From: a virus | Lineage: Duplodnaviria; Caudoviricetes | Length of the DNA stretch: 54,793 nucleotides | Virus record (IMG/VR): IMGVR_UViG_3300012920_000001 | Location: 1 to 54,793 of that record | Direction: 5' to 3' (one strand) | Shown: positions 15,166 through 50,560 of the stretch, piece by piece | How the letters are laid out: each line of letters opens with the position of its first letter | Position numbering within the stretch: position 1 is the first letter of the stretch | The notes under the pieces: generated by a model | Seen by the model: only the letters and a program-made list of their open reading frames with translations | What the model was told of the DNA's origin: nothing | The model's database searches: none | Program-made: the position numbers and the translations under genes

Positions 15166-17190
15166 TTATTCCTCATACTGTAGATATCTGTTTTGTGGGG
15201 CTTCACTCAGATTAGCAACTTCGGCCCCTACCCCAAACGGTTGAACTACATCTTGTATCATTTTTGCATCTGCTCTCTGGGAAGCCTTATCAACTAATTT
15301 AACTACCGTGCTGAGACTTTCTGGTGAACCGTCAGATAATAATTCTGAAATTTTCAACGATACTTGGTCTTGAAATTCGTCGCTCCCCTCATCGCCTGAA
15401 AAAAATCGGGCCATCTTTCTAACTAAACCATCATCGCCAAAAATAATTCCAGCCGCTTTTGGGTTAGACGAAGTCAACTTGTCGTAGGCTTTAACGGCTT
15501 CCCCTCTTCCTGCTGTTTGAGACCCCCCACCGATTGCATTCATTCTACGGTAAAGTTCCGTTTCAATCATCATGGCTTTCTCAAAATTGTCAGCCTTGAT
15601 AACATCGCCATCAAACAGTTGACGAATTTTTGCCCTGAGAGCTTCACCACCTTTTACATTTCCCCCTAACATTTGAGCAAAATTTCTACCACCTTTGACG
15701 TTTAAAACAGAATTTTGTAATACGTCTACAGCAGCCATAATTGCTGTTTCTTTTTCTGCTTTACTATTGAGGGAGTTTAGGAATTTTTCCAATTCTTCCG
15801 GAGTCATTTTATTGAATTGCTTTTTCATTTCTCGTCCGGCTTCTAGCATTGCTGATTTATCACTATAAACTTTTCTTGCGTTCGCATATTCAGGAAATAG
15901 TTCATCTAGCTTTTTCAAAAATCCATCTTTTGCTTCTAGAAGTGCTCCTGTAAGTTCTGTAGGTTCGAAATCTTTATAACTGTCTCTGATTTCGTCATCT
16001 ACACCCTGTTTGATTCTGTCAAAAAGTCTTAGGGATATGGGAGGACGTTCGCCTTTTTGTAATCTATTTAACAACGATGCCAAATCCCTAGCTTCATCAT
16101 CCAATCCACGTTCCTGCGCTAACCGGATAGACCTTTGTAAACCGTTGCGAAAAGCAGGTCTTTGTAAATAAGATGTAATGTCATCGAAACCTTCGTCTGC
16201 TTCCGTAATCATAATTTCTTTTTTACGGTTACCCACTATCATTGGGTTACCCTCTACATCCAGTTCGTAAAATGCTTTTTCATATAACGGACCAGCTTGT
16301 GCTTTGCGGGATTCAGCAATCGCGTCTATTGTTTGGACATAACTTTGTCCTGAATATGGTGACACACTATTGAGTCTCTGAGATATTCTACCTTGTGCAT
16401 CAGTTGTTATTTCGTCGGCTGTATCGCGGATTACTGTCTTGGGTTCGCCACCTTTTGTTACAATGGTATCAGCAAGAGTTTCTAACTCTCTGTTGACTCC
16501 CATCGGCACCATAGGAATATCCAATTCTTGCGCAGCTATAACATCATCCATTGTATTTCTTGCAGCTTGCGAACCACCTGTCGTAGAGAGTAAAACATCG
16601 CCAACTGCTTGATCCCTAGTTCTCCCTGATCCAAATTTACGTTTCAGAAATTTTCCTACTCCTTGGAGCGCGGGTTCAAGAATAGGAGTTGTCAGAGCAC
16701 CAAAAAATGCTCCACTTTCTCTCGCTTCTTCTCTATCTTTTTCATATTGTGGACTTCTATAAGGTGCTTCTGAATAGCCACCACCAGCAATATCGCCACC
16801 GATGTAACCACCTGTACCACCTAACGCCCCTCGTTTTGCGGTTCGCATTACCTTACCACCAACACCCCCCGGTCCTCGTAGTATTCGTTCTAGCGTACCC
16901 ATTTTTCGAATCAGTGGGTCTACACCTACTCTGCCACGACTTATTAGAGCCGCTGCAAGTAAAGGTGTTATAGCCCCAGTAAATTCCCCCACGGCAGCTG
17001 TACCCGGAAATTTTTTTTGATAATCAGCATACGATCTTCTTAAAGCGGCCAAATTTTCTTCATATGATTTATTGTTTACTTTTGACTTCAAATAAGCCTC
17101 GGCCTCATCACCCTGACCCATGAGAAGACCTTGACCGAGAACAGAATCCAAAAATCCCCTGTCAAGAAATTGTGAACGTTCTTCAGCCAT
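15166..17190 (-). CDS. Putative internal virion / DNA ejection protein
   Basis: Large helical protein at the end of the tail module, podovirus synteny. Confidence 0.6.
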   Translation of the reverse strand: MAEERSQFLDRGFLDSVLGQGLLMGQGDEAEAYLKSKVNNKSYEENLAALRRSYADYQKKFPGTAAVGEFTGAITPLLAAALISRGRVGVDPLIRKMGTLERILRGPGGVGGKVMRTAKRGALGGTGGYIGGDIAGGGYSEAPYRSPQYEKDREEARESGAFFGALTTPILEPALQGVGKFLKRKFGSGRTRDQAVGDVLLSTTGGSQAARNTMDDVIAAQELDIPMVPMGVNRELETLADTIVTKGGEPKTVIRDTADEITTDAQGRISQRLNSVSPYSGQSYVQTIDAIAESRKAQAGPLYEKAFYELDVEGNPMIVGNRKKEIMITEADEGFDDITSYLQRPAFRNGLQRSIRLAQERGLDDEARDLASLLNRLQKGERPPISLRLFDRIKQGVDDEIRDSYKDFEPTELTGALLEAKDGFLKKLDELFPEYANARKVYSDKSAMLEAGREMKKQFNKMTPEELEKFLNSLNSKAEKETAIMAAVDVLQNSVLNVKGGRNFAQMLGGNVKGGEALRAKIRQLFDGDVIKADNFEKAMMIETELYRRMNAIGGGSQTAGRGEAVKAYDKLTSSNPKAAGIIFGDDGLVRKMARFFSGDEGSDEFQDQVSLKISELLSDGSPESLSTVVKLVDKASQRADAKMIQDVVQPFGVGAEVANLSEAPQNRYLQYEE

Positions 17191-19316
17191 CAGTTTTCCC
17201 CTAACAGTGTTTTTTCTTCTTCAGTCAACTCAGCTTTCCGTCCCAGTGTTAGATCATCTGCCGTAGCTCTGTATTTTCCTTGATTTATTCTACTCAAACG
17301 ATCTCGCTTTTGATTGATGGTCTTGACCGTTTGGTTAATTAATTTTGCAATAATATCCCTTCGGAACCTAGCGTCTGGATACTCACCAGCACCCATCAAA
17401 TCAAAAAACGCTTGACGTTCACCATCCGACAATTGCGCTCCAAATGTATTTTTCAACTGTTTAACTGCAAATGATCCAATAATGTTCATGACCAATTTTG
17501 TATTTCTTTGTTCTTCGGTTAATCCTCTACCAGCTGCTTCTCTAGCCGCGATGGCAAACATAGCAGCTTTTGTTGACGGTCCAGCTGATTTGTTTACACT
17601 TAATGCTTTCCTTAATTGTTTAAGACCTTCTTGCAAATCTTTAATTCCGTCTTCGTCGGCCACCTTAATTTTCAAAATTTCTGGCGGTAAAGTTTGTTTA
17701 TCGAATTGAAATTTTGATTGTTTTAACAATAACTCTGCTGCTTTTTGATCTTTTTCTGAGATTGTTTTATACAATTCCAACATATAATTGCGGTAATCTT
17801 CCGCTTGTTTTGTCCTCTTATCTTGCAACGTGTCGTACTTATTTTTAGCTTGGGCTAATTTTGCCTTTGCTAACGTTATCTCCATATCTTGCGCTTTAGT
17901 TCTTGCCTCACGAGTATCTTTAGCAAAATCAGCTAGAACCGTTGGAACGTTTTCTAGAAATCCAAAACTTCTGGATTTGGTTGGCTGTGCAAATGCCGCA
18001 GCTAATTTAAAGTACAATTCAGCTTTATCTGGACCTGTTTGTCTTGCAGTAATAATGTCTTGAACCGTTTCGTTAAATTGCGTTTGTGCATCAGCAAAAC
18101 CACTTGCCGCTTGAACAGATTGATCGTATAAATTTTCTACCGTTGGAGCGGCTCGAACTAGCGTCTGTATCATTTCATCTGTGGTTGCTACTGGCGTTGG
18201 ATTTGAAACAGAAGTGGCATCGCCAACCATACCGACCCCTGATGTTTGTCCGAGTGCTTGCTCCGCAGTTAGAGGGCCACCCCCTTGTTGTTGCATTATG
18301 CTGTTTAAACCACCAAGTTGATAACCTTTAACTGGACCACCCGTTTTGTAGAATTGTCTTCCCTCTTGGAATCCGAAGTTTACAAAATGATCTTTGGCTG
18401 CTTGGGCAACGTAATCATCAACGGCTTGTGAACCGGGGCCAGAGGCACTTAAAACCGCTTGATATTCTGGTCTTGCCATGATGTTATCAAAAACATCCAG
18501 ATTTTTGGCAAGGTAAGCACCATATGCGGGTACATTAGCAATACTGCTTTCAGCAAATGGATCTACAGTTCTTGCCTGTTCTAAAGTATTTATACTGTCA
18601 TCTGGCAAGGGGTTTGCTATATTCGCGAGAACTTGCTCTTGTTGATTTGCAAAATCCTGAAAGGTTTGCGAAATATTACCTTGTGCGTCTACTGGATTAG
18701 TGTACGCATCTTCTGTCGTAGTTATAGGTCCAGTATACGGTGGATTAGGGTTAGGTCTATTTGGGAATCGCTCTGCAAAAGGTAAGGATCGATCAATGGG
18801 TGTGGGCGAGTAGTCTGGATTGCGTAAGATATTACCGTAGTAATTTCCTATTGTATCCATCACTGCCTGATTACCCGTATTTCTAATTCCTAAATTTTTA
18901 AACTCATCTTCAAATCGTCTGAGGAATTGTTGACGTTGAGCAAGGCTGAGTGGGTTATCCTCAGTAATCTTTGCATCAAGTCCGATGGCTTCAGTGCGTT
19001 CTTGGTCTGTCGGATCTCTGCCAAGGTATTGTTGATACATCTGCATATAACTCATTGGCTGAGGTGTCGTTTGTGTTTGAAATTGTGACCCAGCATACAT
19101 GGGTGCATTGCGTAGTCTTGATTGATATTGCGCTTGATATTGATCAAAGGCCCGTTGCTTTGCAGGGTCGAAAGTTATCTCTCCCGGTGTGGTTGTCACC
19201 TCTCCGGTTTCTTCGTCTATTACCTCAACATCTGGACCACGTTCACCCTCATAGGAAAGCATTGTAGGTGTAGCCAAACCATACTGTCTCATTAATTTGT
19301 TTAGTTCGAAGCCCAT
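17190..19316 (-). CDS. Putative internal virion / ejection protein with tandem YxxGG motifs
   Basis: Gln/Ala-rich helical protein; YKTGG and YQLGG at 18309-18350. Confidence 0.6.
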   Translation of the reverse strand: MGFELNKLMRQYGLATPTMLSYEGERGPDVEVIDEETGEVTTTPGEITFDPAKQRAFDQYQAQYQSRLRNAPMYAGSQFQTQTTPQPMSYMQMYQQYLGRDPTDQERTEAIGLDAKITEDNPLSLAQRQQFLRRFEDEFKNLGIRNTGNQAVMDTIGNYYGNILRNPDYSPTPIDRSLPFAERFPNRPNPNPPYTGPITTTEDAYTNPVDAQGNISQTFQDFANQQEQVLANIANPLPDDSINTLEQARTVDPFAESSIANVPAYGAYLAKNLDVFDNIMARPEYQAVLSASGPGSQAVDDYVAQAAKDHFVNFGFQEGRQFYKTGGPVKGYQLGGLNSIMQQQGGGPLTAEQALGQTSGVGMVGDATSVSNPTPVATTDEMIQTLVRAAPTVENLYDQSVQAASGFADAQTQFNETVQDIITARQTGPDKAELYFKLAAAFAQPTKSRSFGFLENVPTVLADFAKDTREARTKAQDMEITLAKAKLAQAKNKYDTLQDKRTKQAEDYRNYMLELYKTISEKDQKAAELLLKQSKFQFDKQTLPPEILKIKVADEDGIKDLQEGLKQLRKALSVNKSAGPSTKAAMFAIAAREAAGRGLTEEQRNTKLVMNIIGSFAVKQLKNTFGAQLSDGERQAFFDLMGAGEYPDARFRRDIIAKLINQTVKTINQKRDRLSRINQGKYRATADDLTLGRKAELTEEEKTLLGEN

Positions 19317-19332
19317 TATTTATTCCTTACGA

Positions 19333-20376
19333 TCAATTGCCTGCTAACTTTTGTAGACCTTTGTAAGTAGCCAAACCAGCCGCTATTTGTGACAATGGCG
19401 ATGGTGAGTAAGTCGCGCCCACTGATTGCCCTTGAGTTGTTGTTCGCTTCGGTGCAACCGGAGCTAATCCCCTGATTTGACTAGATAGAAAATCAGCTTG
19501 CTCTCGTGCGTAATTTTGTTGATCCAAAAATTGTTTTTCAGCTGCTGTAAGTTCTCGTTGTAATTGTTGTTGTTGACCAGCACCTGCTGCTTCAAGTGCT
19601 GCTGTGTCGGTGTATCCAAGTGCTTGCCTTTGTGCTCCAAGATTAGCCAAATCGGACAAGGCACCCATTTGCCGTGTTATGTCAGCTTGTTGTATGCCTG
19701 CTACCGTTTGACCGAGGTTAGCTTGTCTATTTAAATCTGCTGCTCGATTAGCCATTGCTTGAGCATATCCCGTGTTAGCTAATTCTGCTTGTTGAGCTAA
19801 AACTGCCTCTTGCGTGTCTCTTAACGCCCTAGCTCCAAAATCACCCATACGACTTGATCCAAATTGACCTGCTCTAATAAAAGCATCGCTTACTGCTGGC
19901 AATAAGTTTTCTTGTAAGTTACGAGCACCTTGTCTTGCAAGTTCGTCCATAACTTGTTGTTGATACGGATTATAATAATTGGAAACGTTTGTAGGTGTGT
20001 CTTCCGCTGCTTTCGTAAAATATGTTTGAGCGGCACCCAACCCAGTTTGGGTGTTAGTGGGTATAATCTCGCTTGGTGTTCCGGGTAATGGAGCTAAACC
20101 AGCTAGAGCACGGATACCCGCTGCCGATGCATCGAGGTCCGGTTGATACGCTCCTTGGGCTTCTTGTACTTGTCTGTAAGCTTGTTGTTGTAATGGTGAT
20201 AGTTCTGCTACCGTTGGTAAATCGTAACTCTCGAAAGGACGATTGGCTAAGTTTTGCGATATTTGTATTTGATTAAATATTGCATCTTGCATCCACCGTG
20301 GTGTTTCGGTAGTGGATGTTGTGTAAGACGTTGCGGTTTGTGGTGCTCCCTGAAATAAACTACCCATGTTAAGCAC
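19333..20376 (-). CDS. Putative DNA ejection/pilot protein
   Basis: Gln/Ala-rich; NPYQQQV, GQFGSSR, C-terminal glycine-rich helix. Confidence 0.6.
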   Translation of the reverse strand: MLNMGSLFQGAPQTATSYTTSTTETPRWMQDAIFNQIQISQNLANRPFESYDLPTVAELSPLQQQAYRQVQEAQGAYQPDLDASAAGIRALAGLAPLPGTPSEIIPTNTQTGLGAAQTYFTKAAEDTPTNVSNYYNPYQQQVMDELARQGARNLQENLLPAVSDAFIRAGQFGSSRMGDFGARALRDTQEAVLAQQAELANTGYAQAMANRAADLNRQANLGQTVAGIQQADITRQMGALSDLANLGAQRQALGYTDTAALEAAGAGQQQQLQRELTAAEKQFLDQQNYAREQADFLSSQIRGLAPVAPKRTTTQGQSVGATYSPSPLSQIAAGLATYKGLQKLAGN

Positions 20377-37265: not shown

Positions 37266-37819
37266 CGTTTTCTCCGTTTAATATCATATTCAGCTTCGCC
37301 CCGAAGTCTACGCATTTCGTCACGAGCATTTCTTTCCCTAGATGCAACTCTTTTCAGTTGTTGACGCTTGTCGCGTCTTTCCTGAGCATCTTTGGGTCTT
37401 CGTGCTCTAACTCTACGCATTTCATCAGCGGCATCGTCCTGAACACCAATGACACGAGCTTCCTCATCACGAATATTACGGTTGACTCTACCGCCATCAG
37501 CTTTATTCATTTTTGAAAAAGTCTTGGCTAGGTTGGCTCTTTTCTGAGTGGTTGCAGATGGTTTACCAGCACCTTTTTTAGCTGGCTTCCCTTCGGCTAA
37601 TTTGTTGATTACGCCCTTGGGAATTTTTCCATCCTTCATTTTGACCCCTTCACTTTTAACGTAAGAAGTCAACGCACCCGGCTTTTTTACAGCCCCCTGA
37701 ATCCAATTTTTGTCAGATGTTGATCCACCTTTTTTCATCCCACGAGAACTTGATTTTGTGAAACCAAACGAAGAATCAAAATGCCAACCGTCTCGGAAGG
37801 GATAGCTCGATTTCATCAT
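37262..37819 (-). CDS. Basic modular protein (start revised to ATG 37819)
   Basis: ATGA overlap; NWIQGAVKKPGAL...KRANLAKT module flanked by MKKGG and KADGG. Confidence 0.7.
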   Translation of the reverse strand: MMKSSYPFRDGWHFDSSFGFTKSSSRGMKKGGSTSDKNWIQGAVKKPGALTSYVKSEGVKMKDGKIPKGVINKLAEGKPAKKGAGKPSATTQKRANLAKTFSKMNKADGGRVNRNIRDEEARVIGVQDDAADEMRRVRARRPKDAQERRDKRQQLKRVASRERNARDEMRRLRGEAEYDIKRRKR

Positions 37820-38589
37820 GCATCTCCCATACCGGAATGGTTTGAACAATAGTAATACAGTTCTGGTGTTGAGTCGGTGGTATCTATTTGAGTAAATGCA
37901 CCTGCCGTACCCGCTGTATTATTTATAGTCACCCCATCGGTGTATTCGACACCACCTGCGTGTGTTCCATTTGGCGTTGTGCTGAATCGCAATGGATGGT
38001 TGTTGTTGGTATTATCACTCTGTAAAAAGCGATAACTTCTGTTTGCTTCGAATGTGAAGTGTGGGCTTACCGCATCATCAACATAAAAAACATTACCAGT
38101 TCCATAGGAGTTTGTACCCGCTGCGACTCTTACGTTGTAAGACACTAGACCACTAACGTCCGCTGGTCTGTGATACTCCTTGATTGCATGAATTATTATT
38201 GTATAAGTATCACCGTTTGAAGCATTTCTAGTGCTCAAAGCGATATCACCAGCAGCATCGACACCTTTAATGCCACTTGCATTATAGGGTAGATACGGAA
38301 CGTATGGGATATCATATAGTTCACCTTGTGGGAAACTTGCTATGAGAGCATCACCAGCTGGACTTGGATCACCAACCCAAAAAAGATCAACACCCATGTC
38401 ATAAGTCTGACATACGACCTTTGTAATTTTTAGACCATTGCAAGCTAAACCGAACGAGTTTGGAGCAAGTGTAGAAACATCTATCTTGGTAACTTTACTT
38501 TCGCCAGTACCATCCGAGAGATTAGTAAACTTTGCAATGTACTGTCGCTCTCCATCTTGGAGAACTTGAGTTGTGACTGCATCAGCCAT
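37816..38589 (-). CDS. Virion protein with C-terminal cupredoxin-like domain
   Basis: MADAVT.Q...DG..ES.V.K.DVS.L N-terminus; HPLRFS...LYYYCSNHSGMG C-terminus; GGAGG RBS. Confidence 0.6.
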   Translation of the reverse strand: MADAVTTQVLQDGERQYIAKFTNLSDGTGESKVTKIDVSTLAPNSFGLACNGLKITKVVCQTYDMGVDLFWVGDPSPAGDALIASFPQGELYDIPYVPYLPYNASGIKGVDAAGDIALSTRNASNGDTYTIIIHAIKEYHRPADVSGLVSYNVRVAAGTNSYGTGNVFYVDDAVSPHFTFEANRSYRFLQSDNTNNNHPLRFSTTPNGTHAGGVEYTDGVTINNTAGTAGAFTQIDTTDSTPELYYYCSNHSGMGDA

Positions 38590-42942: not shown

Positions 42943-43100
42943 GCTTTCATATAACCTTTTGCGTTACCTGATAGCTTGTACTCGTAACGGGCTGGCATAA
43001 TGCCATCAACTTTTCCCGTCGATTCTTTTCTTGGACCTTCGGATAGCTTTCTTGGATTTTGTGCTTCCTTCATGTTGTCCATGTTCCGTTTGTAACCCAT
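42939..43100 (-). CDS. Small basic protein (start revised to ATG 43100)
   Basis: AAGGAG RBS before ATG 43100; overlaps 3' end of the 256-aa ORF. Confidence 0.5.
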   Translation of the reverse strand: MGYKRNMDNMKEAQNPRKLSEGPRKESTGKVDGIMPARYEYKLSGNAKGYMKA

Positions 43101-43800: not shown

Positions 43801-46338
43801 TTATGGTTGCGGGTCTGGGTCAATTCCTGTTCCAGTTGATACTTGTACCTTCTCACCCGTAGCCATTTCAGCAGCTGCGAGTAATTTAGCTGTCTCGTTG
43901 TCTGACTCATTCATTCGTTCTCTAGCGGCTAGATCCTCAGCCTTTCTTCTGTTTTCGTTCTCTTGTTTGATAGCTTCAAGGTCAAATTTAGCCTGACGAT
44001 CTGCAATGTCATTCTCTATTTTAGCCGCTTCAAGCTGGTCTTCATTCATCATTTCAGTGGCTTTTAGCTCCATTTTATCCTTTTCAAGCTGCATTTTCGC
44101 CTGAAGTTCCATCTGATCTTGTTGAATCTTAGCTCGATCTGACTCAGCACGTTGTTGAAGCGTCATTTGTGCAATTTCGAGCGATTTATCCTGTGGCATA
44201 GGCGGTTGTGGGGCATATTTCTGCGCTTCGGCAGTCATTTGCGCTAAATCTTTGCCAAAATTGCCTAATTGTTGCTCAATAAATTGTTGAACTTGCATAA
44301 TTACGGTGACTTCGTCCGATGCTTCTTTTTGAACCAAATTTTGAGCTTGTGCTTGTTGCACTGCCGTGTGTGCTTCCACCAAATAGTAGTTCAAAAGATG
44401 ATCCCGCAAGTGAATAGCCATAGGATAGAGAAAATTTGGCATAATTGCAGGGTTTGCACCGAACAGTGGAGATTTCAGGAATGGCAAATGAGTCATCATA
44501 TGTGCCAAATGGTCCTGTTCTGGGAGAACGTATACGGGTCTGCCCAGTGCAGCCGCCACATTTTCACTCACGGGGTCAAGGTTTTCTGTTCCCGGTGGGT
44601 CAACTAACACCTCTGAGTCGGGAACTTTCATAACTCTCAGGAACATTTCCTCGACTTTGCGTGCATCATACATCTGAGGCATCAATCGAGCACGTTCCAT
44701 GATAGCTTGGATCTGCGCGAAACGCTGTGTTTCACTGAAAATGGCTGGATCACTCACAGGTATAACGTCCATTGGACCGTCAAAGTCTGCTGGTTCGATC
44801 TCAAGACCAGCTTCATTGCCCTGTAGATCTTCATCTACCATGTAAGCACTATTGATTCTGTGTAGAATCTTAAAACATCGCTCCATAGATGAATGTAAAC
44901 GTGAGTGAATAGAACTGAATACCACCATACCCTGTTCAATTAGGGCCATTGTAGTACCAACTGGCATATTTGGATTTGTATCACTTAGCTTTTCAAATGA
45001 TGTTTGAACAACACCACGGCCCGCGTCTACTAAAAATCCAAGTAATTGAAACAATGTTGGGCTTGGTCCACTGAACGGAAGAGGCATTGCAATCTTGCGA
45101 ATGTCATCCACCATTGCACCACCTTCAATTTCTGCTATTTCGGTAGGTTGCAAGCTAATTGTTTGTCCACTTGGACCACCTTTGAGCTTCAACATCGTTG
45201 GTATGTTTTGAATGTGAGCACTATCCATCAATGCCCTCAATGCTCCGGTTGCAGCACCACTCAAACCACCAATCATCTGGGTCAAACCGATAGGATAAGC
45301 ACCACGCCACGGCACAAATGGAAACTCTACGATCCAATCCAACTCGTTTTTCATTTCATCGTCTGCTTCCCAGTTACGATACAATGACAATGCTTTGTTG
45401 GTGGTTTTGTCTATAGTCAGGATATATGGCTCTAGGCCATCATCGAAATCCATGAACGTATAAATTTCAAAGATGGTTCTCAAACCGTCTTCGTTGTAAC
45501 TACTTTCTTGCTTACCTTCGATCTTATCGTTCGCAGTTGTTGCCTTGCTATACTCTGGCTCGTTTGGATAACCAAGATCGACATCGATATACATACCGGA
45601 TTTTACCCGTCTTTCGTATTCCATCTTGGTGATATACTGAACGTGAGTCTTACGTTCTGCCGTATAAAAGTTTGTTGCAGCAAACGGTAAATACACATCG
45701 TCAATCGGGATAAACTCTGACTGAGGTTTACGATGCAAACTATCCCACATAAATTTCATGTACTGACCACCACCCAATGGGAGTTGGGTACTAAGTTGTT
45801 CAAGTTCAGCACGGAACTCAGGCATCTGTTCCGTAGTTTGCCAGTTCATAAAGTCTGTCTTCCGTCTGGCTTTTTCTAGCTTGTCTGGTGTTTGCTCACC
45901 TTGAACTTTACTTTTGACAGGTCCGTTTGACGGGAACGCTTCCTTCATAAATCGTGCGGAAAAGTCAACGCACGCTTGAATTAACATGGGATGTACGACA
46001 CGGTTAGCACCTTCAAATTGTGCTCCACCCGGTGCGTCATCACCAAGTCCAGTACGCTGCAAACCTAATTCGTATTGTTTGTCGCGTTTCTCTCTGGACT
46101 CTTTGTCTTTTGATATCTTGTCTACTAGATCAATGATTGCCGTGTTGAGTTTATTCTGGTCTACCTCTTCGACAATATTAGCAAAATGTGCAAGCCTTTG
46201 TTCTTGGCTCAACTCCATTTCTTCAAGACGAACAAAAGCACCACCGTCTTCTGTTTCTTCAACCTCTGCTAACTCATTTGGGATAGCGACAGTTTCGCCT
46301 TGCTGTTCTTCTTCCATCATTGTTTCGTCAGACATCAT
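43801..46338 (-). CDS. Portal protein
   Basis: 845 aa; HPML..A..DF.AR, YPIGL..MIGGL, PVGTTMAL.E.G, PVSDP, coiled-coil C-terminus. Confidence 0.85.
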   Translation of the reverse strand: MMSDETMMEEEQQGETVAIPNELAEVEETEDGGAFVRLEEMELSQEQRLAHFANIVEEVDQNKLNTAIIDLVDKISKDKESREKRDKQYELGLQRTGLGDDAPGGAQFEGANRVVHPMLIQACVDFSARFMKEAFPSNGPVKSKVQGEQTPDKLEKARRKTDFMNWQTTEQMPEFRAELEQLSTQLPLGGGQYMKFMWDSLHRKPQSEFIPIDDVYLPFAATNFYTAERKTHVQYITKMEYERRVKSGMYIDVDLGYPNEPEYSKATTANDKIEGKQESSYNEDGLRTIFEIYTFMDFDDGLEPYILTIDKTTNKALSLYRNWEADDEMKNELDWIVEFPFVPWRGAYPIGLTQMIGGLSGAATGALRALMDSAHIQNIPTMLKLKGGPSGQTISLQPTEIAEIEGGAMVDDIRKIAMPLPFSGPSPTLFQLLGFLVDAGRGVVQTSFEKLSDTNPNMPVGTTMALIEQGMVVFSSIHSRLHSSMERCFKILHRINSAYMVDEDLQGNEAGLEIEPADFDGPMDVIPVSDPAIFSETQRFAQIQAIMERARLMPQMYDARKVEEMFLRVMKVPDSEVLVDPPGTENLDPVSENVAAALGRPVYVLPEQDHLAHMMTHLPFLKSPLFGANPAIMPNFLYPMAIHLRDHLLNYYLVEAHTAVQQAQAQNLVQKEASDEVTVIMQVQQFIEQQLGNFGKDLAQMTAEAQKYAPQPPMPQDKSLEIAQMTLQQRAESDRAKIQQDQMELQAKMQLEKDKMELKATEMMNEDQLEAAKIENDIADRQAKFDLEAIKQENENRRKAEDLAARERMNESDNETAKLLAAAEMATGEKVQVSTGTGIDPDPQP

Positions 46339-49300
46339 ATGCCTCCAGTATCTGATCAGCCATCATGTCAACTTTTTTGGCGTTGTAAACCCCACCCTTG
46401 GCAAATCGTAACTTTCCTTGAACCCCAATGAACTTTTCATCCGTCTGTGGATCATATCTTCCACCAAGTCTAATACTTCCGTCATCGGTCTGATAAGTTA
46501 TGCCACCCTGAGCTGGACCTGCTTGTAATTGTCCATAACTAAACAAATCTTGCAAGTTTTCCATTCCACCTTGGACACTCGCTGATGCATCTATCACTAA
46601 ATTATCGTTAATGTTTTTGACAATACCCAACTCGGCAAATCCTTGAATTTGGTCAAGTGGTAAAGTTTTCTGTGAAACTTTTTCACCGTCGAAAAACAAA
46701 ATGTCCCGATAGCTACGACCACCACTGACATCAATTCCACCCGTGGCTTGTGCTCCGAGAAAATGTTCGAACAAGTTATCAAAAAAACTTTGACCAACTG
46801 ATCCACCCTCTTGATAGCCACGTTTTTTCATCTCTTCTATCGAGGCTGAAATTGTATCTACGATTTCCGGTGTTATTTCTTGTCCCGGTACTTTGGTGCG
46901 TATCGTTTGAGATTTAGCTGATTCTGATTCAGGTTTGCCTCTAACCATTTTTCCTTCACGCTCTTTGTACAAATCCTGAAATAATTGACTTTGTGGCACA
47001 TCACGCTCAAGAGCACCCAAATATTTCCCAGCCATTTGTGTGTCGTATGTAGAGTGTGGTATTAGAGGATCGGTAATAATATCAGCTTCTAAATCTATTT
47101 CACCAATTGCTCCACCAAACATTCCGGGTGGTGAATCAAGTTGAGATCTGTCCGTTGTAGCAACCCTAGCTTTACCCGGAGACGGAAATCCGGCCTTCTG
47201 TGCTGGTTGTTTCTCCATCATTCTCATAAATTTTTTCCGCACTCTAGACGGTGCCTTAGCAATATAATCACGAAGATCCGGTGAATCTATTCCGGGCCAA
47301 TCCTTTACAGGTCTGAAATCTTTATCTTCACCAACTTGTTTTTTCATTAGAGCGTCAAAGGCTTTCATATCTTTTTTCTTCATGCCACCGCGAGTAATAG
47401 TCACGGCTGTCATTTCTGCAAGCAGCTCCGGTGTAAAATTGTTAAAGTCTAAAGCTCGGGGTGCCATTGTTCCCGTAATACCCACAACTTCTTTACCTGT
47501 TTCTCTCGCTTCTTCTAGAGCACGGTTTTTTAAACGAGCGATTATACTTTGACCCGATGCCCAAATGTTTGTTTCGGGATTATTTGGAAGACGCTTATTC
47601 TCCCCTATTTTTCCTGCATCGCCACGCATATAGTCTCTGCCGCCTTCTGTGAGAACAGGTGTTTCTAATTTGATGTTGTCTACGGCAGTAATTTTTTCAC
47701 CAAGGCTTGAACGATCTCCGTAAAAAGGGATTGCTATTTTCCCTTCCAAATCTTCTATACTGATTGTTTTCTTCGGTGCTAACTCAACTACTGATTCTGA
47801 TTCGACCTCAACCTCAGATGGTGGCTTGTCCATTTTGGTTGCCTGATATTTCAAAGGATCTAACTCTTCTTTGGTCAATCGAGAGTAATCGTCTTTGCCA
47901 GTGTCACCTACATCCCTTGGACCTTTACCGCCTCTACTCTCTGCACCCCTAACAATTTCTTCGGCACGGCTTTCGACAATGTTTGGATCGTATTGTTTCA
48001 GGGCTTTGCGTAAAGGTCTCGTTACACCTTTCAACACTTGACCCGCAACGGGTGCATACTCGGATGTTCCTAGAAGTGCAGCAGTTCCTGCCGCAAGGGC
48101 TGGCATATATTGACCAGCTTGAATATTCTTCAAAGCATCTATTGCGTCACTTCCAATATCTCGTGGATCAGTAGGAACAACAATGTCATATCCCAACAAC
48201 AAGGCATCTAAACTATCAATACGACCATCGTTATTATAGTCAGCAAGATTAGATCTCTGTTTGGTTACTTCTCTTTGGAAATCTCTTTCGTCCATGCCCA
48301 AGTCAAGCTCGACTGAACCACCCTCGGCATAAGTTACATCGGTCAGAAAGTCTTTACGCATCTTGTCCGTAATGTCCATTCGCCAATCACCGTTCGGTGT
48401 CTGGTATGGTTCTACGCCATACTTCTTACCGATCTTCTTGGCTTCCTTGACCATCACAGTGTCGTATAACTGTCTCGCACCTTTCGTTAGATTTCTTCCT
48501 TGATCGTCTATCGAATCTTTAACGACAGGTTTATCAAATGCAAAACCGAACTCTGCATCCGTGCCATAATTTGGATTATTATTGTAAGCGTCAGCTACTT
48601 CATCTCCATAATTCTCACGCAACCATTTGACTTCCCCGTGTTGCAAAGCAAATGCATCCACATAATCTTCTATTTCTTCTTCTTTTACCGGATCATAATA
48701 TTCAATTTTTCCCTCAGCAGGAGAATATCTGAACGACTCAATGTGCTTCACTTGATCACGGACACTTGCCGATTGATTGCCACTTATCCAACCAATGGCA
48801 TCGTCGGCATTATCAACACCCTCGTTGATTAATCGTTGCATTGCTAACTTGGGCCACTCTTTCAAAAATGGGAAGTCTTTAGGCACACCCGGTGGGGTAA
48901 CTATTCGGGCTAACAGCCTTCGTTTTGCTATCAGCCGATCTTTCTCAAATCGCAATTTTCCAACTTTGTTCTGGGCATCTCTGAGGGCAGGAAAATTTCC
49001 TTCCATTCGGTATTTAGGTGTAAACTGATTAGCTAGGTCTATAAGTTCTGTGACTTCTTGTATCTCTTCCCGTATTTCTTCTTCTACTTTTGCTTTATTT
49101 GCGAGGGTTATTTTTTGTTCGCCTAATTCATCGAAGGCACGCTGAATGTTTTCGGCTATCTCAGATGCATTACCCTTATAGGCTTCGTTTCTAGCAGGAT
49201 CACGGACGATTTCATTGTGCAAAACTATTTTAAGATTGTTTCTGTCTTCCAAAAGTCTTCGCGCATTTGTATCTATCGGAGTGTTGAGATCAAACTCGCC

Positions 49301-50560
49301 ATATTGAGCTTTTGCTATTGCAGTATCCGATTGCATCTCTTCCGCAAACGTCACGTTCTTCGGCTCTTCCATCCCTTTCTGGCCCGGAATAGCATTGTCT
49401 TGAAATCTATCGCTCCGTATATGAAATATTGTGTTTTCATACCCCCTGTAGTGTGGATTAGGCAAACTAAAGTAATTGCCACCTTGTGTGCGTATATTTT
49501 CTTTTTGATATTGGACTGCCATCTCCGGAGTTAGTCCCACGAGTAACTCTTGATACTCATCTGAGTCGATAGGATCATAATCAGGAGAAATCGACCTTGG
49601 TCTTCTCATGACTGTCGCATACTCTGGAACAACACCCGTGTCATCAAATTTTAATAGTTCTTCTCGGATAGCACCTGACTTTGGCGTTCTTCTCTGCAAC
49701 GCTTTTTGTAGGTACTCTGTCGTCACAGTATCGTCAGGTTTCTCGCCAGCCATCTCCTGTAACTTCGCTTGGTATCTTACATCTTCAAGTTCCGGTTCGA
49801 TAAATTGCTTCTCAGTTGGGCTGATGTCCTCAGTAAGTTTTCTTACTTGACCCACCGTCATTTTTTGTTGTGGACTGCTACCGAGTCTTTCTCCAAGTCG
49901 GCCCTTATAACTCGCAGCTTCTAACACGGAAGTATCCGGTAGTTTCTGTCCAACTTCCTGTAAGAAACTCTTGATCGGTCTGCCTATCGTGCTCGTAGCA
50001 AACTTCGCCCCCGGAATGTAATCCGCAGCCATCAACGTACCCAAGCCAGCCATTGCCATGCCCTTTGCAATGTCACCCTGTTTGATGTTACTGCCAGCTT
50101 GCTTTAATGCCCCAGCAATCTCGGTTGGGTAAGACGGACGTAAAAACTCATAGGCATCAATGATATCAATTCGTCCATCGTCGTTTAAATCAGCTAAGGC
50201 TCCACGTTGTTGTGTTACTAAACGATCACCCATTGCCTCGGATAGTGGGTCATCTCCGGTGACACCCAACACACGACCACCCTCGTTCCACTTTACCTTG
50301 TTAGCCCAGTACGCTGCCGAAGTCTTACCCTTAGCAATATTCTTTGCGTGTCTAGCCTTGAATGACTTACGTCTGGCCTTTTGTTTTTTGGATTCGCCCT
50401 TCTTAGGCTTGCCCGCCGTGCTCACACCTTGTTGACCAAACCGGATTAGTCTCTCGGTGCCATTGTCGTTGATCTTGACAACGTGAGATTTGGTTGGGTG
50501 GTTAGGCGTGCGTCTCGGTTTGTTTAATTGCAAACTATCTTTGAGAGACTTCTTGCTCAT
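46328..50560 (-). CDS. Large modular protein (1410 aa), candidate polyprotein/internal virion protein
   Basis: Basic DUF6321-like N-terminus; four aromatic-x-x-GG motifs; duplicated D.N.DGRID..D loop. Confidence 0.75.
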   Translation of the reverse strand: MSKKSLKDSLQLNKPRRTPNHPTKSHVVKINDNGTERLIRFGQQGVSTAGKPKKGESKKQKARRKSFKARHAKNIAKGKTSAAYWANKVKWNEGGRVLGVTGDDPLSEAMGDRLVTQQRGALADLNDDGRIDIIDAYEFLRPSYPTEIAGALKQAGSNIKQGDIAKGMAMAGLGTLMAADYIPGAKFATSTIGRPIKSFLQEVGQKLPDTSVLEAASYKGRLGERLGSSPQQKMTVGQVRKLTEDISPTEKQFIEPELEDVRYQAKLQEMAGEKPDDTVTTEYLQKALQRRTPKSGAIREELLKFDDTGVVPEYATVMRRPRSISPDYDPIDSDEYQELLVGLTPEMAVQYQKENIRTQGGNYFSLPNPHYRGYENTIFHIRSDRFQDNAIPGQKGMEEPKNVTFAEEMQSDTAIAKAQYGEFDLNTPIDTNARRLLEDRNNLKIVLHNEIVRDPARNEAYKGNASEIAENIQRAFDELGEQKITLANKAKVEEEIREEIQEVTELIDLANQFTPKYRMEGNFPALRDAQNKVGKLRFEKDRLIAKRRLLARIVTPPGVPKDFPFLKEWPKLAMQRLINEGVDNADDAIGWISGNQSASVRDQVKHIESFRYSPAEGKIEYYDPVKEEEIEDYVDAFALQHGEVKWLRENYGDEVADAYNNNPNYGTDAEFGFAFDKPVVKDSIDDQGRNLTKGARQLYDTVMVKEAKKIGKKYGVEPYQTPNGDWRMDITDKMRKDFLTDVTYAEGGSVELDLGMDERDFQREVTKQRSNLADYNNDGRIDSLDALLLGYDIVVPTDPRDIGSDAIDALKNIQAGQYMPALAAGTAALLGTSEYAPVAGQVLKGVTRPLRKALKQYDPNIVESRAEEIVRGAESRGGKGPRDVGDTGKDDYSRLTKEELDPLKYQATKMDKPPSEVEVESESVVELAPKKTISIEDLEGKIAIPFYGDRSSLGEKITAVDNIKLETPVLTEGGRDYMRGDAGKIGENKRLPNNPETNIWASGQSIIARLKNRALEEARETGKEVVGITGTMAPRALDFNNFTPELLAEMTAVTITRGGMKKKDMKAFDALMKKQVGEDKDFRPVKDWPGIDSPDLRDYIAKAPSRVRKKFMRMMEKQPAQKAGFPSPGKARVATTDRSQLDSPPGMFGGAIGEIDLEADIITDPLIPHSTYDTQMAGKYLGALERDVPQSQLFQDLYKEREGKMVRGKPESESAKSQTIRTKVPGQEITPEIVDTISASIEEMKKRGYQEGGSVGQSFFDNLFEHFLGAQATGGIDVSGGRSYRDILFFDGEKVSQKTLPLDQIQGFAELGIVKNINDNLVIDASASVQGGMENLQDLFSYGQLQAGPAQGGITYQTDDGSIRLGGRYDPQTDEKFIGVQGKLRFAKGGVYNAKKVDMMADQILEAYDV

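What the first reader, a model, noticed from the sequence alone, without database searches (positions are those of the whole stretch)
17190..50560. Recurring [YFWM]-x-x-G-G tag in five late proteins: candidate polyprotein-processing or capsid-loading system
Seen: the motif occurs in the 1410-aa protein (WNEGG 50276-50290, YAEGG 48317-48331, YQEGG 46802-46816, FAKGG 46391-46405), the 708-aa protein (YKTGG and YQLGG, 18309-18350), the 609-aa protein (YARGG 21884-21898, variant YAAEGG 20627-20644), the 37262-37819 protein (MKKGG, variant KADGG) and six times in the 136-aa protein. It is often preceded by a basic residue or Gly and followed by x-V/M. The proteins are otherwise unrelated, and the motif tends to sit where composition changes abruptly. 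Known: phages process head proteins at short motifs (T4 gp21, phiKZ gp175) and use capsid-targeting sequences (T4 internal proteins); di-Gly cleavage is typical of ubiquitin-like and adenovirus proteases. Inference: a shared signal for cleavage, for docking cargo in the prohead, or both. I am not aware of a characterisation for this phage group but cannot check the literature.
Basis: partly seen in the sequence, partly recalled or inferred. Interest (0 to 1): 0.85.

Follow-up and report, generated by a model that had tools for sequence, protein, structure and literature searches.

The report
Gly-Gly junction motif in phage cargo
A short tag (Tyr/Phe/Trp-Ala-x-Gly-Gly-x-Val) really does recur at the joints and tails of the large modular proteins that this marine phage probably carries in its particle, and because it resembles the spot where phage T5 is known to cut its tape-measure protein it is more likely a conserved cutting or docking mark than chance.

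Summary
As defined, [YFWM]xxGG is not enriched: without the 136-aa repeat protein, late proteins hold 12 against 10.7 expected. The signal is real once sharpened. All four sites of the 1410-aa protein, both sites of the 708-aa protein and YARGG of the 609-aa protein are conserved in relatives down to 30-56% identity. The true motif is [G/K]-[Y/F/W]-A-x-G-G-x-V. It sits at module ends in a hypervariable protein encoded between terminase and portal. It also begins a ~25-residue C-terminal tag, for which a profile finds 372 protein clusters. Relatives carry polyvalent-protein domains such as ART-PolyVal and PcfJ. The motif also occurs in tape-measure proteins. Phage T5 cuts its tape-measure protein immediately before AEGG. 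Lambda gpH has FATGG where its unmapped cut should lie. Best reading: a conserved maturation-cleavage and docking mark of proteins that leave the virion. It is inferred, not shown: no protease gene was found and no mass-spectrometry data exist. No paper found in string searches of the held library describes the motif.

The parts
46328..50560 (-). 1410-aa modular 'slot' protein between large terminase (51715-53304) and portal (43801-46338). Its last codons overlap the portal start by 11 nt.
   Evidence: ORF list. Only Pfam hit is a dockerin-like loop; only PHROG hit is phrog_7595 at residues 7-91. In relatives with TerL ~77-95% and portal 60-94% identical, this slot holds proteins of 873-1748 aa with different middles.
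50288..50560 (-). N-terminal small domain (phrog_7595, residues 1-91), ending in ...VKW, the W of WNEGG.
   Evidence: phrog_7595 E=2.4e-35. It is a stand-alone gene ending exactly at W in 68 of 80 fetched loci. In the other 12 it is fused, and all 12 junctions read W-x-[E/D]-G-G or W-K-A-A-E-G-G. In SIO1 the open frame, left unannotated in the record, stops right after W.
50276..50290 (-). Motif 1, WNEGG(RV): junction after the N-terminal domain.
   Evidence: Conserved in L003, L005, L006 and L015.
48317..48331 (-). Motif 2, YAEGG(SV): start of the second dockerin-like module. The short homologues L005 and L006 join VKW directly to this AEGG and lack the ~650 residues between motifs 1 and 2.
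48194..48271 (-). Dockerin-like Ca-loop plus helix (ADYNNDGRIDSLDALLL). A weaker twin lies at 50141-50203 (ADLNDDGRIDIIDAYEFL). Each follows a motif by about 25 residues.
   Evidence: Pfam Dockerin_1: E=2.3e-6, 28.1 bits against a cut-off of 22.9, residues 764-789, second half of the profile only. The twin scores E=0.013.
46802..46816 (-). Motif 3, YQEGG(SV), at the end of the domain shared with phage C72C1, CRP-902 and L004. L004's separate 663-aa gene stops just before this point.
46331..46405 (-). C-terminal tag: motif 4 FAKGG plus VYNAKKVDMMADQILEAYDV (one unit of the motif-plus-helix tag).
   Evidence: Alignment A1 of 14 such C-termini. The A1 profile finds 372 cluster representatives at E<=1e-3 and 78 at E<=1e-10 among 1.84 billion. 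143 of the top 150 have the motif 15-50 residues from the C-terminus.
18309..18350 (-). 708-aa protein (17190-19316): tandem YKTGGPVKGYQLGG between a conserved N-terminal part and a hypervariable, indel-rich stretch.
   Evidence: Conserved in 6 of 6 homologues down to 30% identity. The neighbouring gene 19333-20376 matches a PHROG 'DNA ejection protein'.
21884..21898 (-). 609-aa protein (20369-22198): YARGG(LAV), opening a module (GGDxxLAHINDREAEVLRRMGG...) that is also found inside the slot protein of L033.
   Evidence: Invariant in 10 of 10 homologues down to 39% identity. L033 module seen.
20372..20644 (-). 609-aa protein C-terminal block: YAAEGG plus GPGNGRDDVINARLSDGEYVIDAESV, shared with tape-measure proteins.
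   Evidence: PHROG tape-measure families match residues 527-575. tblastn hits tape-measure genes of Gordonia, Rhodococcus, Nitrincola and Brevundimonas phages. In two of these the block is preceded by FATGGYV or YATGGYV.
36855..37265 (-). 136-aa basic Gly-rich protein: two KGYAKGG repeats, a central ~50-aa 'DESLG' domain (37038-37190), then four 11-residue KGMM[R/K]GGSMK[T/S] repeats.
   Evidence: Sequence. 814 relatives at E<=1e-3, none with a Pfam family. Repeat number varies among homologues. 69 of 124 domain copies have the motif within 12 residues upstream; many of these are close relatives.
37262..37849 (-).
   Evidence: In the L005 homologue a DESLG module is inserted exactly between NMKRGG and FKKGG at the place of the window's single MKKGG.

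Best explanation
WHAT IT IS. The recurring element is a short linear motif, [G/K]-[Y/F/W]-A-x-G-G-x-V. It belongs to proteins that this podovirus most likely carries in the particle and expels into the host:
- the hypervariable modular ('polyvalent') protein encoded between terminase and portal;
- the 609-aa and 708-aa ejection-type proteins;
- in a basic variant (K-G-[Y/M]-x-[K/R]-G-G), two small internal proteins.

SHOWN. The motif is conserved, it sits at module ends, and it begins a ~25-residue C-terminal tag made of the motif plus an amphipathic helix.

INFERRED, step 1. The motif is a maturation-cleavage site, cut between the aromatic residue and the Ala. T5 cuts its tape-measure protein at R1127|AEGG. 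Such a cut would release the N-terminal domain with exactly the ...VKW end that the stand-alone gene has in other phages.

INFERRED, step 2. The terminal tag first docks the protein at its assembly site, as the C-termini of T5 and lambda tape-measure proteins dock in the hub. It is then separated from the cargo.

INFERRED, step 3. The enzyme is not phage-encoded in any obvious way. It is a host peptidase (P22 gp7 is trimmed by host OpdA) or an activity that depends on assembly.
For: REALITY OF THE MOTIF
- In 102 tag-bearing proteins, leaving out their last 100 residues: 279 motifs against 64.6 +/- 7.9 in shuffles, maximum 90 of 300.
- 289 of 322 x-A-x-G-G-x-[VIL] sites have Y/F/W at x, against a 7.2% background.
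- In the window, [YFW]A.GG occurs 5 times in late proteins against 0.77 expected, and 0 times in early proteins.

MODULE ENDS
- The small domain is stand-alone and ends at W in 68 loci. In all 12 fused loci, and in the window, AEGG-like residues follow W.
- L005 and L006 lack exactly the stretch between motifs 1 and 2.
- A DESLG module is inserted between two motifs in L005.
- Distinct ends of similarity blocks lie within 10 residues of a motif in 18.9% of cases against 6.2% null. Starts do so in 13.5% against 6.4%.

CLASS OF PROTEIN. Of 50 tag-bearing proteins of 450 aa or more that were scanned: 12 PcfJ, 6 ART-PolyVal, 3 DUF6973, 2 methyltransferase, 1 SLT, 1 phage lysozyme, 1 ParB_N. The gene always lies next to portal.

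CLEAVAGE PRECEDENT
- T5 pb2 is cut after R1127 (PMC10038345, passage). The sequence reads ...SFVPR|AEGGMM, and this is the only GG in the last ~730 residues.
- R-A-x-G-G is kept in 4 of 4 Demerecviridae sequences, down to 37% identity.
- Lambda gpH loses about 14 kDa from its Gly-rich C-terminal region, and the exact site is unknown (PMC12617516, passages). FATGG lies at 733, and a cut after F733 gives 79.8 + 12.5 kDa.
- P22 gp7's first 20 residues are removed by host OpdA, according to the GenBank note. The junction reads SYPE|KGGKGG.

STRUCTURE. The AF2 model of a tandem tag has the motifs disordered (pLDDT <50) and short helices after them (pLDDT ~75). This fits an exposed linear motif.
Against: - No cleavage has been observed for any protein of this phage or its relatives. 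No virion or metaproteome data were examined.
- No protease gene was recognised. The only HExxH protein in the window is a weak SprT-like early ORF: 24.1 bits, below the 25.6 cut-off. 0 of 50 tag-bearing relatives matched a Pfam peptidase family.
- The precedents are imperfect. T5 has Arg, not an aromatic residue, at P1, and M, not V, after GG. P22 is cut one residue before GG, not two. Lambda's site is unmapped.
- If every copy were cut, the 136-aa protein would be chopped into ~11-residue pieces and the tandem C-terminal tags into ~25-residue peptides, which seems wasteful.
- Polyvalent proteins need not be processed. N4 virion RNA polymerase is packaged uncut (PMC5512222, passage).
- Conservation at module ends is equally expected for a docking or hinge element.
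- The similarity-block statistics count related sequences, so they are not independent.
Confidence: 0.45

Rival explanations
1. Uncleaved docking or assembly tag. The motif plus the helix after it is a peptide that folds on binding. It holds cargo at a conserved virion part (portal, core, scaffold or capsid interior), or staples chains together in the channel. Internal copies are relics of fusions between once-separate tagged proteins. No proteolysis is involved.
For: - The tag sits at the extreme C-terminus in 143 of the top 150 profile hits, often as two tandem units.
- It ends the gene just upstream of portal in 13 of 15 related loci with a portal match. The misses are L007 and L033, where the unit is internal.
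- Helices follow the disordered motif in the AF2 model.
- True dockerin-like Ca loops follow motifs 1 and 2.
- T5 and lambda tape-measure C-termini dock in the hub (PMC10038345 and PMC12617516, passages).
Against: - Only the 8-residue core, not the helix, is conserved at internal sites. A docking surface of 8 disordered residues is small.
- No partner has been identified.
- This reading does not explain why fused small domains are followed by AEGG exactly where stand-alone copies stop, nor the coincidence with the T5 cut.
Confidence: 0.3
2. Evolutionary joint only. The motif is a flexible aromatic-capped Gly-Gly linker that tolerates any neighbour. Shuffled modules therefore keep it, possibly helped by microhomology at the DNA level. 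It has no recognition function.
For: - Deletions and insertions end exactly in the motif.
- In P0180 the small domain is bracketed by two copies.
- The slot is hypervariable although the flanking genes are 60-95% identical.
- The motif is disordered in the model.
Against: - A plain linker would not keep Ala at +1 (74%), Val at +6 (68%) and Y/F/W in 90% of sites across hundreds of protein clusters and in tape-measure proteins of actinobacterial and proteobacterial phages.
- The conserved DNA is at most ~12 bases, with varied codons.
Confidence: 0.12
3. For the two small basic proteins only. The K-G-[Y/M]-x-[K/R]-G-G repeats are an RGG/KGG-like low-complexity nucleic-acid-binding region of internal, DNA-associated proteins. 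They resemble the junction motif only by composition.
For: - The 136-aa protein is 19% Gly and rich in Lys, Arg and Met. It has 11-residue repeats of variable number.
- These copies lack the Val at +6.
- Small proteins made almost wholly of such repeats exist in L005, L061 and P0286.
Against: - The same YAKGG/FAKGG words flank DESLG modules inside large non-basic proteins (P0007, P0076, P0101).
- They bound an inserted module in L005, as the junction motif does.
- No nucleic-acid binding was tested.
Confidence: 0.15
4. Chance. A loose 5-residue pattern chosen after looking, in Gly-rich late proteins.
For: - Without the 136-aa protein, late proteins have 12 against 10.7 expected.
- Given a GG, Y/F/W/M at -3 occurs 17 times against 15.7 expected.
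- M of MGQGG and Y of YAAEGG are not conserved.
- KADGG is only a variant.
Against: Conservation in homologues, 13 of 13 fusion junctions, a four-fold internal excess in 102 proteins and 372 profile hits.
Confidence: 0.03

Closest known systems
Maturation cleavage of the phage T5 tape-measure protein pb2 (pb2* + pb2C)
   Same: A protein that leaves the virion through the channel is cut directly before A-E-G-G (R1127|AEGG). The cut separates a C-terminal module whose end docks in the hub. R-A-x-G-G is kept across Demerecviridae.
   Different: P1 is Arg, with an aromatic residue at P4 or P3, and no Val follows GG. T5 is a siphovirus tail protein, and no generalised motif is described in the passages read. 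The catalyst is unknown. Fig. S5G and table S3 of PMC10038345 were not seen because supplements are closed.
Lambda gpH -> gpH* + gpHC
   Same: About 14 kDa is removed from the Gly-rich C-terminal region, and gpHC residues 818-849 dock on hub gpI (PMC12617516, passages). The sequence has FATGG at 733 and YATGG at 778, followed by the same G...GEFV block as the 609-aa protein.
   Different: That paper states that the site and the catalyst are unknown. The link to the motif is my inference from fragment sizes. The classical 79-kDa size of gpH* is recalled, not taken from a call.
P22 ejection protein gp7, N-terminal 20 residues removed by host oligopeptidase A
   Same: An ejection protein of a podovirus is trimmed by a host enzyme directly before K-G-G-K-G-G, with Tyr three residues upstream of Lys21 (two before the cut).
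   Different: It is an N-terminal leader, not a module joint. The cut is one residue before GG, and there is no Ala or Val. Only the GenBank note was seen, not the original paper.
Polyvalent proteins of phages and conjugative elements (Iyer et al. 2017, PMC5512222)
   Same: Large, highly variable multi-module proteins encoded among head genes and predicted to be injected. Relatives carry ART-PolyVal, ParB_N, methyltransferase and lysozyme/SLT domains. Processing into units is predicted in that paper (passages).
   Different: That paper assigns processing to in-cis zincin peptidase domains and packaging to MuF or portal fusions. Its main text has 0 occurrences of 'glycine', 'linker', 'packaging signal' or 'PcfJ'. 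The window protein has no recognised enzyme, peptidase or MuF domain.
T4 capsid-targeting sequence with gp21; phiKZ gp175 processing
   Different: Those sites have Glu at P1 and need a prohead protease. No such gene was found here, and the motif has an aromatic residue at the presumed P1.
Di-glycine proteases (adenovirus protease, ASFV pS273R, ubiquitin-like and papain-like proteases, bacteriocin double-glycine leaders)
   Same: Gly-Gly in the recognition site of viral polyprotein or leader processing (recalled knowledge).
   Different: These cut after GG, with a hydrophobic residue at P4. The only mapped relative here (T5) is cut two residues before GG. No clan-CE or C39 domain was found in the window ORFs scanned.
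Type I dockerin; encapsulin cargo-loading peptides
   Same: Tandem ~22-25-residue C-terminal units, or short Gly-containing C-terminal peptides, that dock a cargo. Genuine dockerin-like loops follow motifs 1 and 2.
   Different: The tag lacks the DxNxDG Ca loop, and no cohesin-like or shell partner is known. Likeness to encapsulin peptides is recalled only.

Membership tests
Phage polyvalent proteins (Iyer et al. 2017) | One polypeptide combining several unrelated modules, with architecture varying between close relatives | tested here: met
   The slot proteins of relatives (873-1748 aa) share only the small domain, the motifs and the tag, while TerL, portal and capsid genes are 60-95% identical.
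Phage polyvalent proteins (Iyer et al. 2017) | Encoded among head or packaging genes (portal-terminase context) | tested here: met
   The gene lies between TerL and portal, and its end overlaps the portal start. The same position is seen in 15 related loci.
Phage polyvalent proteins (Iyer et al. 2017) | Carries conflict-type enzymatic or DNA-binding domains (ART, methylase, ParB, lysozyme, zincin peptidase, MuF...) | tested here: inconclusive
   Window protein: none found. Tag-bearing relatives: 6 of 50 ART-PolyVal, 12 of 50 PcfJ, 2 methyltransferase, 1 ParB_N, 2 lysozyme/SLT, 0 peptidase, 0 MuF. L007 has an HELQH motif.
Phage polyvalent proteins (Iyer et al. 2017) | Packaged in the virion and delivered to the host | not testable with these tools
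   This needs virion proteomics.
Tape-measure/ejection-protein maturation cleavage (T5 pb2 type) | A-x-G-G immediately C-terminal to the scissile bond | tested here: met
   T5 reads R1127|AEGG. The window has W|NEGG, Y|AEGG, Y|QEGG, F|AKGG, Y|ARGG and A|AEGG.
Tape-measure/ejection-protein maturation cleavage (T5 pb2 type) | The protein is actually cut there in the particle | not testable with these tools
   No proteomic data exist for this phage group.
Tape-measure/ejection-protein maturation cleavage (T5 pb2 type) | Sequence kinship with tape-measure C-terminal regions | tested here: met
   Met for the 609-aa protein only. PHROG tape-measure families match at E=2.6e-6 to 1.2e-4. tblastn matches tape-measure genes in 13 of the 21 listed hits by annotation. 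The motif precedes the shared block in 2 of 2 tape-measure proteins read and in lambda gpH.
Substrates of di-glycine (clan CE or C39) proteases | Cognate protease encoded by the virus | tested here: not met
   No such Pfam or PHROG hit in the window ORFs scanned. About 37 of the 50 listed ORFs were scanned in at least one library.
Substrates of di-glycine (clan CE or C39) proteases | Hydrophobic residue at P4 with the cut after GG | tested here: not met
   The conserved aromatic residue is at P5 relative to a cut after GG. The mapped T5 cut is before A-E-G-G.
T4 gp21 / phiKZ gp175-type head processing | Prohead protease gene, with Glu at P1 | tested here: not met
   No protease family was found. 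The only related hits are the capsid halves of capsid-protease fusion families, on the 304-aa capsid protein. The residue before GG is E in 45%, K in 12% and D in 10% of sites.
Type I dockerin | Two tandem Ca-binding loop-helix repeats (DxNxDGxIxxxD) | tested here: inconclusive
   Two single half-repeats lie 650 residues apart and match only the second half of the profile. The C-terminal tag has no such loop.

The most novel reading that the evidence does not exclude
[Aromatic or Arg]|A-x-G-G is a general maturation signal of proteins that leave tailed-phage particles through the channel: tape-measure proteins of siphoviruses, ejection proteins of podoviruses and head-borne polyvalent cargo.

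It is cut by a conserved host peptidase or by an activity that depends on assembly, after a C-terminal helix has docked the protein.

This reading predicts the long-unknown lambda gpH cut at F733|A734. It also predicts that the marine phages use the signal to release interchangeable effector modules from one hypervariable precursor.
Probability: 0.25. Interest if true: 0.8.

Novelty: new variant of a known kind. Interest (0 to 1): 0.62.

Why it matters
Proteolytic maturation of tape-measure proteins has been known since the 1970s. [quoted passage not shown]

A sequence rule shared by T5, lambda-like and actinophage tape-measure proteins, podovirus ejection proteins and marine polyvalent proteins would have three uses:
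- It would make the lambda question directly testable by point mutants and mass spectrometry.
- It would give annotators a way to split giant phage proteins into their working units.
- It would flag which proteins of uncultured marine phages travel into the host.

The ~25-residue C-terminal tag has 372 clusters and no Pfam family. It is also a candidate handle for loading foreign cargo into capsids.

If the motif proves to be only a hinge, the result is still a useful domain-boundary marker.

Tried and rejected
1. IN-FRAME SHINE-DALGARNO FOSSILS. The idea was that K/E/R-G-G is encoded by AAGGAGG, followed by ATG or GTG. Rejected: the Gly codons at the motifs are mostly GGT GGT or GGC GGC.

2. 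COMPLEX PREDICTION of portal (alignment A3) with the C-terminal tag (A1): 'no answer', score 0.00, controls not run. This is reported here only and counts neither way. Portal was chosen solely because the genes are adjacent and overlap.

3. STRUCTURE OF THE 256-AA PROTEIN, to ask whether it is a protease. The AF2 model is unusable at mean pLDDT 34.1, so no fold search was run. The ESM Atlas gave no usable hit. Of 1078 relatives, the top 120 are all 70% identical or more and unnamed. The PHROG label 'ferredoxin' is unverified.

4. STRUCTURE OF A TANDEM TAG: low confidence, mean pLDDT 61.4 and pTM 0.21. Used only for order and disorder.

5. SEARCHES THAT FOUND NOTHING
- tblastn of the 136-aa protein and of a tag-only protein against 50,697 GenBank phage records. 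The low-complexity filter was on.
- megablast of 24 kb of the window.
- PDB sequence search with the 609-aa protein (one chance hit, E=0.59) and with the 1410-aa protein.
- Pfam on six sub-regions of the 1410-aa protein and on the tape-measure block.

6. LITERATURE STRING SEARCHES for the motif words returned only unrelated papers, judged from listings and abstract openings. The Iyer 2017 text does not mention such a motif. These searches cover only the held library. Subscription papers were not seen, including Tsui & Hendrix 1983, Zweig & Cummings 1973 and Conlin et al. 1992. Supplements were not seen.

7. SprT-LIKE HExxH ORF (5998-6495) as the processing enzyme. It lies in the early module and scores below Pfam's cut-off. 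Left as a weak candidate.

8. DOCKERIN KINSHIP OF THE TAG: eye-level likeness only. Not claimed.

Full report
SETTING. The window is a complete 54,793-bp IMG/VR virus record with direct terminal repeats. The late genes run on the minus strand:
- large terminase, 51715-53304;
- a 380-aa ORF;
- the 1410-aa protein, 46328-50560;
- portal, 43801-46338;
- a very conserved 256-aa ORF;
- the capsid protein, 39181-40095;
- tail and fibre genes;
- an ejection-type block of 609 aa, 347 aa (PHROG 'DNA ejection protein'), 708 aa and 674 aa.

Early genes include a primase-helicase, an SNF2-type helicase, a weak family-B polymerase match and a lysozyme. No GenBank phage is close at the DNA level. By portal, the nearest are Caulobacter phages RW/RLK/KcrB/GB2A (50% identity), then Roseobacter CRP-901/902 and Pelagibacter HTVC023P/027P (30-34%).

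THE OBSERVATION. The statistics for the motif as written are poor.
- 50 ORFs hold 23 [YFWM]xxGG against 13.5 expected from shuffles (P=0.016).
- Six of these come from the 136-aa repeat protein. Without it, the late proteins have 12 against 10.7 (P=0.37).
- The early proteins have 5 against 1.9.
- Among 145 GG dipeptides outside the 136-aa protein, Y/F/W/M at -3 occurs 17 times against 15.7 expected.

On the window alone, then, the pattern could pass for chance plus one repeat protein. I also tested whether K/E/R-G-G might be translated Shine-Dalgarno sequences. The codons are mostly GGT GGT or GGC GGC, so it is not.

CONSERVATION CHANGES THE PICTURE.
- The 1410-aa protein has one full-length homologue, L003, at 56% identity. 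It keeps all four sites (WNEGG, YAEGG, YNEGG, FAEGG). Three shorter homologues keep the junction site and the two C-terminal sites.
- In the 708-aa family, FYKTGGPVKGYQLGG is kept in 6 of 6 homologues, down to 30% identity. It is followed at once by a hypervariable stretch full of indels.
- In the 609-aa family, QGYARGGLAV is invariant in 10 of 10 homologues, down to 39% identity.
- The M of MGQGG and the Y of YAAEGG are kept in only 3 of 10, although their GG is kept in all.

MODULE ENDS.
- Residues 1-91 of the 1410-aa protein are a small domain (phrog_7595, E=2.4e-35). In 68 of 80 fetched loci it is a stand-alone gene that stops right after its last residue, W.
- In the other 12 loci, and in the window, it is fused to something downstream. 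All 13 junctions read W-x-[E/D]-G-G (11 cases) or W-K-A-A-E-G-G (2 cases).
- The short homologues L005 and L006 join VKW directly to the AEGG of motif 2. They lack precisely the ~650 residues between motifs 1 and 2.
- The L005 homologue of the 195-aa protein has a ~50-residue 'DESLG' module inserted exactly between two motifs (NMKRGG ... FKKGG), where the window has one.
- L004 and phage C72C1 encode the central domain as a separate gene that ends just before motif 3.

A HYPERVARIABLE SLOT. Loci L007, L012, L013, L014, L016, L022, L033, L036, L037, L046 and L047 come from the same phage group. Where present in the locus, TerL is ~77-81% identical, portal 60-72% and capsid 86-90%. Between terminase and portal they carry proteins of 279-1748 aa with different middles.
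- Eight slot proteins each hold 2-6 motifs, with P of 0.001-0.031 against their own shuffles.
- Lining up all instances shows the real consensus and a larger unit: [Y/F]-A-x-G-G-[S/L]-V, then 1-8 residues, then [Y/F]-D-P-x-x-[I/V]-D-x-[I/M]-[A/V]-x-x-[F/I/L].
- This unit is often tandem and lies at the extreme C-terminus.
- The window's C-terminus, RFAKGGVYNAKKVDMMADQILEAYDV, is one such unit.
- The gene just upstream of portal ends with this tag in 13 of 15 related loci. In L007 and L033 the unit is internal.

HOW WIDE.
- A profile of 14 C-terminal units (A1, 39 positions) was searched against 1.84 billion cluster representatives. It finds 372 proteins at E<=1e-3 and 78 at E<=1e-10, with lengths of 36-1907 residues and usually 2-7 matched stretches.
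- 143 of the top 150 have the motif 15-50 residues from the C-terminus.
- In the 102 of these that are 300 aa or longer, I left out the last 100 residues so that the profile cannot bias the count. There are 279 motifs against 64.6 +/- 7.9 in shuffles, maximum 90.
- The internal consensus is G/K (64%) - Y/F/W/M - A (74%) - E/K/D (67%) - G - G - x - V (68%), with nothing conserved beyond.
- Without asking for an aromatic residue, 289 of 322 x-A-x-G-G-x-[VIL] sites have Y, F or W at x, against a 7.2% background.
- Applied back to the window, [YFW]A.GG gives 5 in late proteins against 0.77 expected (0 of 500 shuffles) and none in early proteins.
- Among 100 such proteins, distinct ends of partial BLAST matches lie within 10 residues of a motif in 18.9% of cases against 6.2% null. 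Starts do so in 13.5% against 6.4% (the raw version is). These sequences are related, so the figures describe the data and are not probabilities.

WHAT THE PROTEINS ARE.
- Of 50 tag-bearing proteins of 450 aa or more (50 of the 150 listed, chosen by length and rank), Pfam finds PcfJ in 12, ART-PolyVal in 6, DUF6973 in 3 and a methyltransferase in 2. It finds SLT, phage tail lysozyme, DUF4214, ParB_N and SLT_4 in 1 each. No family covers the tag, and there is no peptidase.
- This is the 'polyvalent protein' class of Iyer et al. 2017: large variable proteins of phages and plasmids, predicted to be delivered with the DNA and cut into units. I read passages of that paper. Its main text has no occurrence of 'glycine', 'linker' or 'packaging signal', so the motif is not described there.
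- The window's own protein has no recognised enzyme domain. It has two dockerin-like Ca loops, each about 25 residues after a motif and followed by a hydrophobic Gly/Ala-rich stretch.
- The 136-aa protein is a different object: a widespread ~50-residue charged domain (814 relatives, no Pfam family) flanked by variable numbers of K-G-[Y/M]-x-[K/R]-G-G repeats.
- 69 of 124 copies of that domain have the motif within 12 residues upstream, though many are close kin. Of 117 domain ends, 63 stop within 4 residues, 19 run into xxGG and 35 continue otherwise.

LINK TO TAPE-MEASURE PROTEINS AND KNOWN CUTS. The C-terminal block of the 609-aa protein (YAAEGG...GPGNGRDDVINARLSDGEYVIDA) matches PHROG tape-measure families. 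It also matches tape-measure genes of Gordonia, Rhodococcus, Nitrincola and Brevundimonas phages. In the two I read, the block is preceded by FATGGYV or YATGGYV, and further copies (FSTGGYV, YADGGTV) follow.

- Lambda. gpH has FATGG at 733 and YATGG at 778, around the same block. [quoted passage not shown] It says the exact site and the catalyst are unknown, and that gpHC residues 818-849 sit on the hub protein gpI. A cut after F733 would give 79.8 and 12.5 kDa.
- T5. The cut was mapped by LC-MS 'after R1127' (PMC10038345, passage). The sequence there is ...NSFVPR|AEGGMMYPG, and this is the only GG in the last ~730 residues of pb2. R-A-x-G-G is kept in 4 of 4 Demerecviridae sequences, down to 37% identity.
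- P22. The GenBank note says the first 20 residues of ejection protein gp7 are removed by host OpdA. The junction is SYPE|KGGKGG.

Three channel-transiting proteins known to be cut are thus cut at or beside an x-G-G element with an aromatic residue a few positions upstream. In the one precisely comparable case, the cut falls directly before A-E-G-G.

HOW IT MOST LIKELY WORKS.
- Shown: a conserved linear motif marks module ends and begins a C-terminal tag in a class of late, portal-adjacent, polyvalent-type and ejection-type proteins.
- Inferred, step 1: the motif is a maturation site cut between the aromatic residue and Ala. This would give the fused small domain exactly the ...VKW end of the 68 stand-alone genes.
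- Inferred, step 2: the tag's helix first docks the protein, as tape-measure C-termini dock in the hub, and is then parted from the cargo.
- Inferred, step 3: the catalyst is a host peptidase or depends on assembly, since no protease gene was recognised. Only a sub-threshold SprT-like early ORF was found.
- The AF2 model of a tandem tag is of low confidence overall (pLDDT 61). It places the motifs in disordered stretches and helices after them. This suits an exposed site but does not decide between cutting and docking.
- I give the cleavage-plus-docking reading 0.45, docking or hinge without cleavage 0.30, a mere evolutionary joint 0.12, and chance 0.03 for the core sites.
- A separate reading applies to the two small basic proteins only and is not exclusive of the others: their repeats serve nucleic-acid binding (0.15).

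AGAINST THE FAVOURED READING.
- No cut has been seen in this group.
- T5 has Arg rather than an aromatic residue at P1.
- P22's geometry differs by one residue.
- Lambda's site is unmapped.
- Cutting every copy would shred the 136-aa protein.
- N4's polyvalent RNA polymerase is packaged uncut.

NOVELTY. Maturation cuts of tape-measure proteins, polyvalent proteins and capsid-targeting peptides are all known kinds. The following were not found in the library searched (Pfam):
- this motif;
- its C-terminal tag family;
- its use as the joint of a hypervariable terminase-portal slot protein;
- its coincidence with the T5 cut.

I therefore rate it a new variant of a known kind, of moderate to high interest, chiefly because it turns an old open question (where and how lambda and other tape-measure proteins are cut) into a direct test.

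LIMITS. Supplements were closed. The complex prediction gave no verdict, and the 256-aa model failed.

Noticed in passing
window 37038-37190 (-), inside the 136-aa ORF: A ~50-residue highly charged 'DESLG' domain (QGYNARLDESLG...RRDESKGMEK...VGTMD) that looks like an internal duplication of R-x-DES-x-G-M. It has 814 relatives at E<=1e-3 in the 5.8-billion-protein set, mostly 74-80-aa stand-alone marine proteins. None has a Pfam family.
   Followed up: partly
window 43006-43776 (-): A 256-aa ORF right after portal is unusually conserved: 85-98% identity in related loci, 1078 relatives, and the top 120 all 70% or more. It is rich in conserved Cys, His and Trp. The PHROG label 'ferredoxin' is unsupported by Pfam. 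The AF2 model failed (pLDDT 34). Some relatives are fused to DUF6321 or to KGYAKGG repeats.
   Followed up: partly
L002 4001-4261 (Roseobacter phage SIO1, between gp22 and the PhoH-like feature): The phrog_7595 small domain is an open, unannotated 70-odd-residue ORF in the SIO1 record, and it lies among early or metabolic genes. The domain is therefore not tied to structural modules everywhere.
   Followed up: no
window 22195-22686 (-): A GNAT-type acetyltransferase (phrog_4470 E=8e-21; Pfam Acetyltransf_4 and Acetyltransf_3, both weak) sits between the 609-aa ejection-type gene and a virion structural gene. It could modify virion or host proteins.
   Followed up: no
window 5998-6495 (-): An early 165-aa ORF with an HEVAH motif and a sub-threshold SprT-like match (24.1 bits against 25.6). 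It is the only zincin-type candidate peptidase in the window.
   Followed up: partly
window 50563-51705 (-) and 17190-19316 (-): The 380-aa ORF upstream of the slot protein and the 708-aa protein share an H-[F/Y]-x-N-F-G-x-Q-E-G-R segment. In the 708-aa protein it lies directly before the motif. The 380-aa ORF is only ~32% identical between relatives whose TerL is 89-95% identical. This was seen by eye only.
   Followed up: no
L110 (lambda gene H), residues 733-737 and 778-782: Lambda gpH carries FATGG and YATGG in the region where its unmapped maturation cut must lie. A cut after F733 gives 79.8 + 12.5 kDa. This is a testable prediction for a model phage.
   Followed up: partly
P0180 (metagenome protein, 174 aa): The phrog_7595 domain is bracketed by two copies of the motif inside a tag unit (YAKGGSV - domain - WNEGGSVEYNP...), like an insertion flanked by a duplicated joint.
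   Followed up: no
L007 7289-12532 (1748-aa slot protein), residue 665: An HELQH zincin-like motif lies directly before a WGRGG motif. It is the only HExxH among the eight related slot proteins checked. It was not checked against peptidase families.
   Followed up: no
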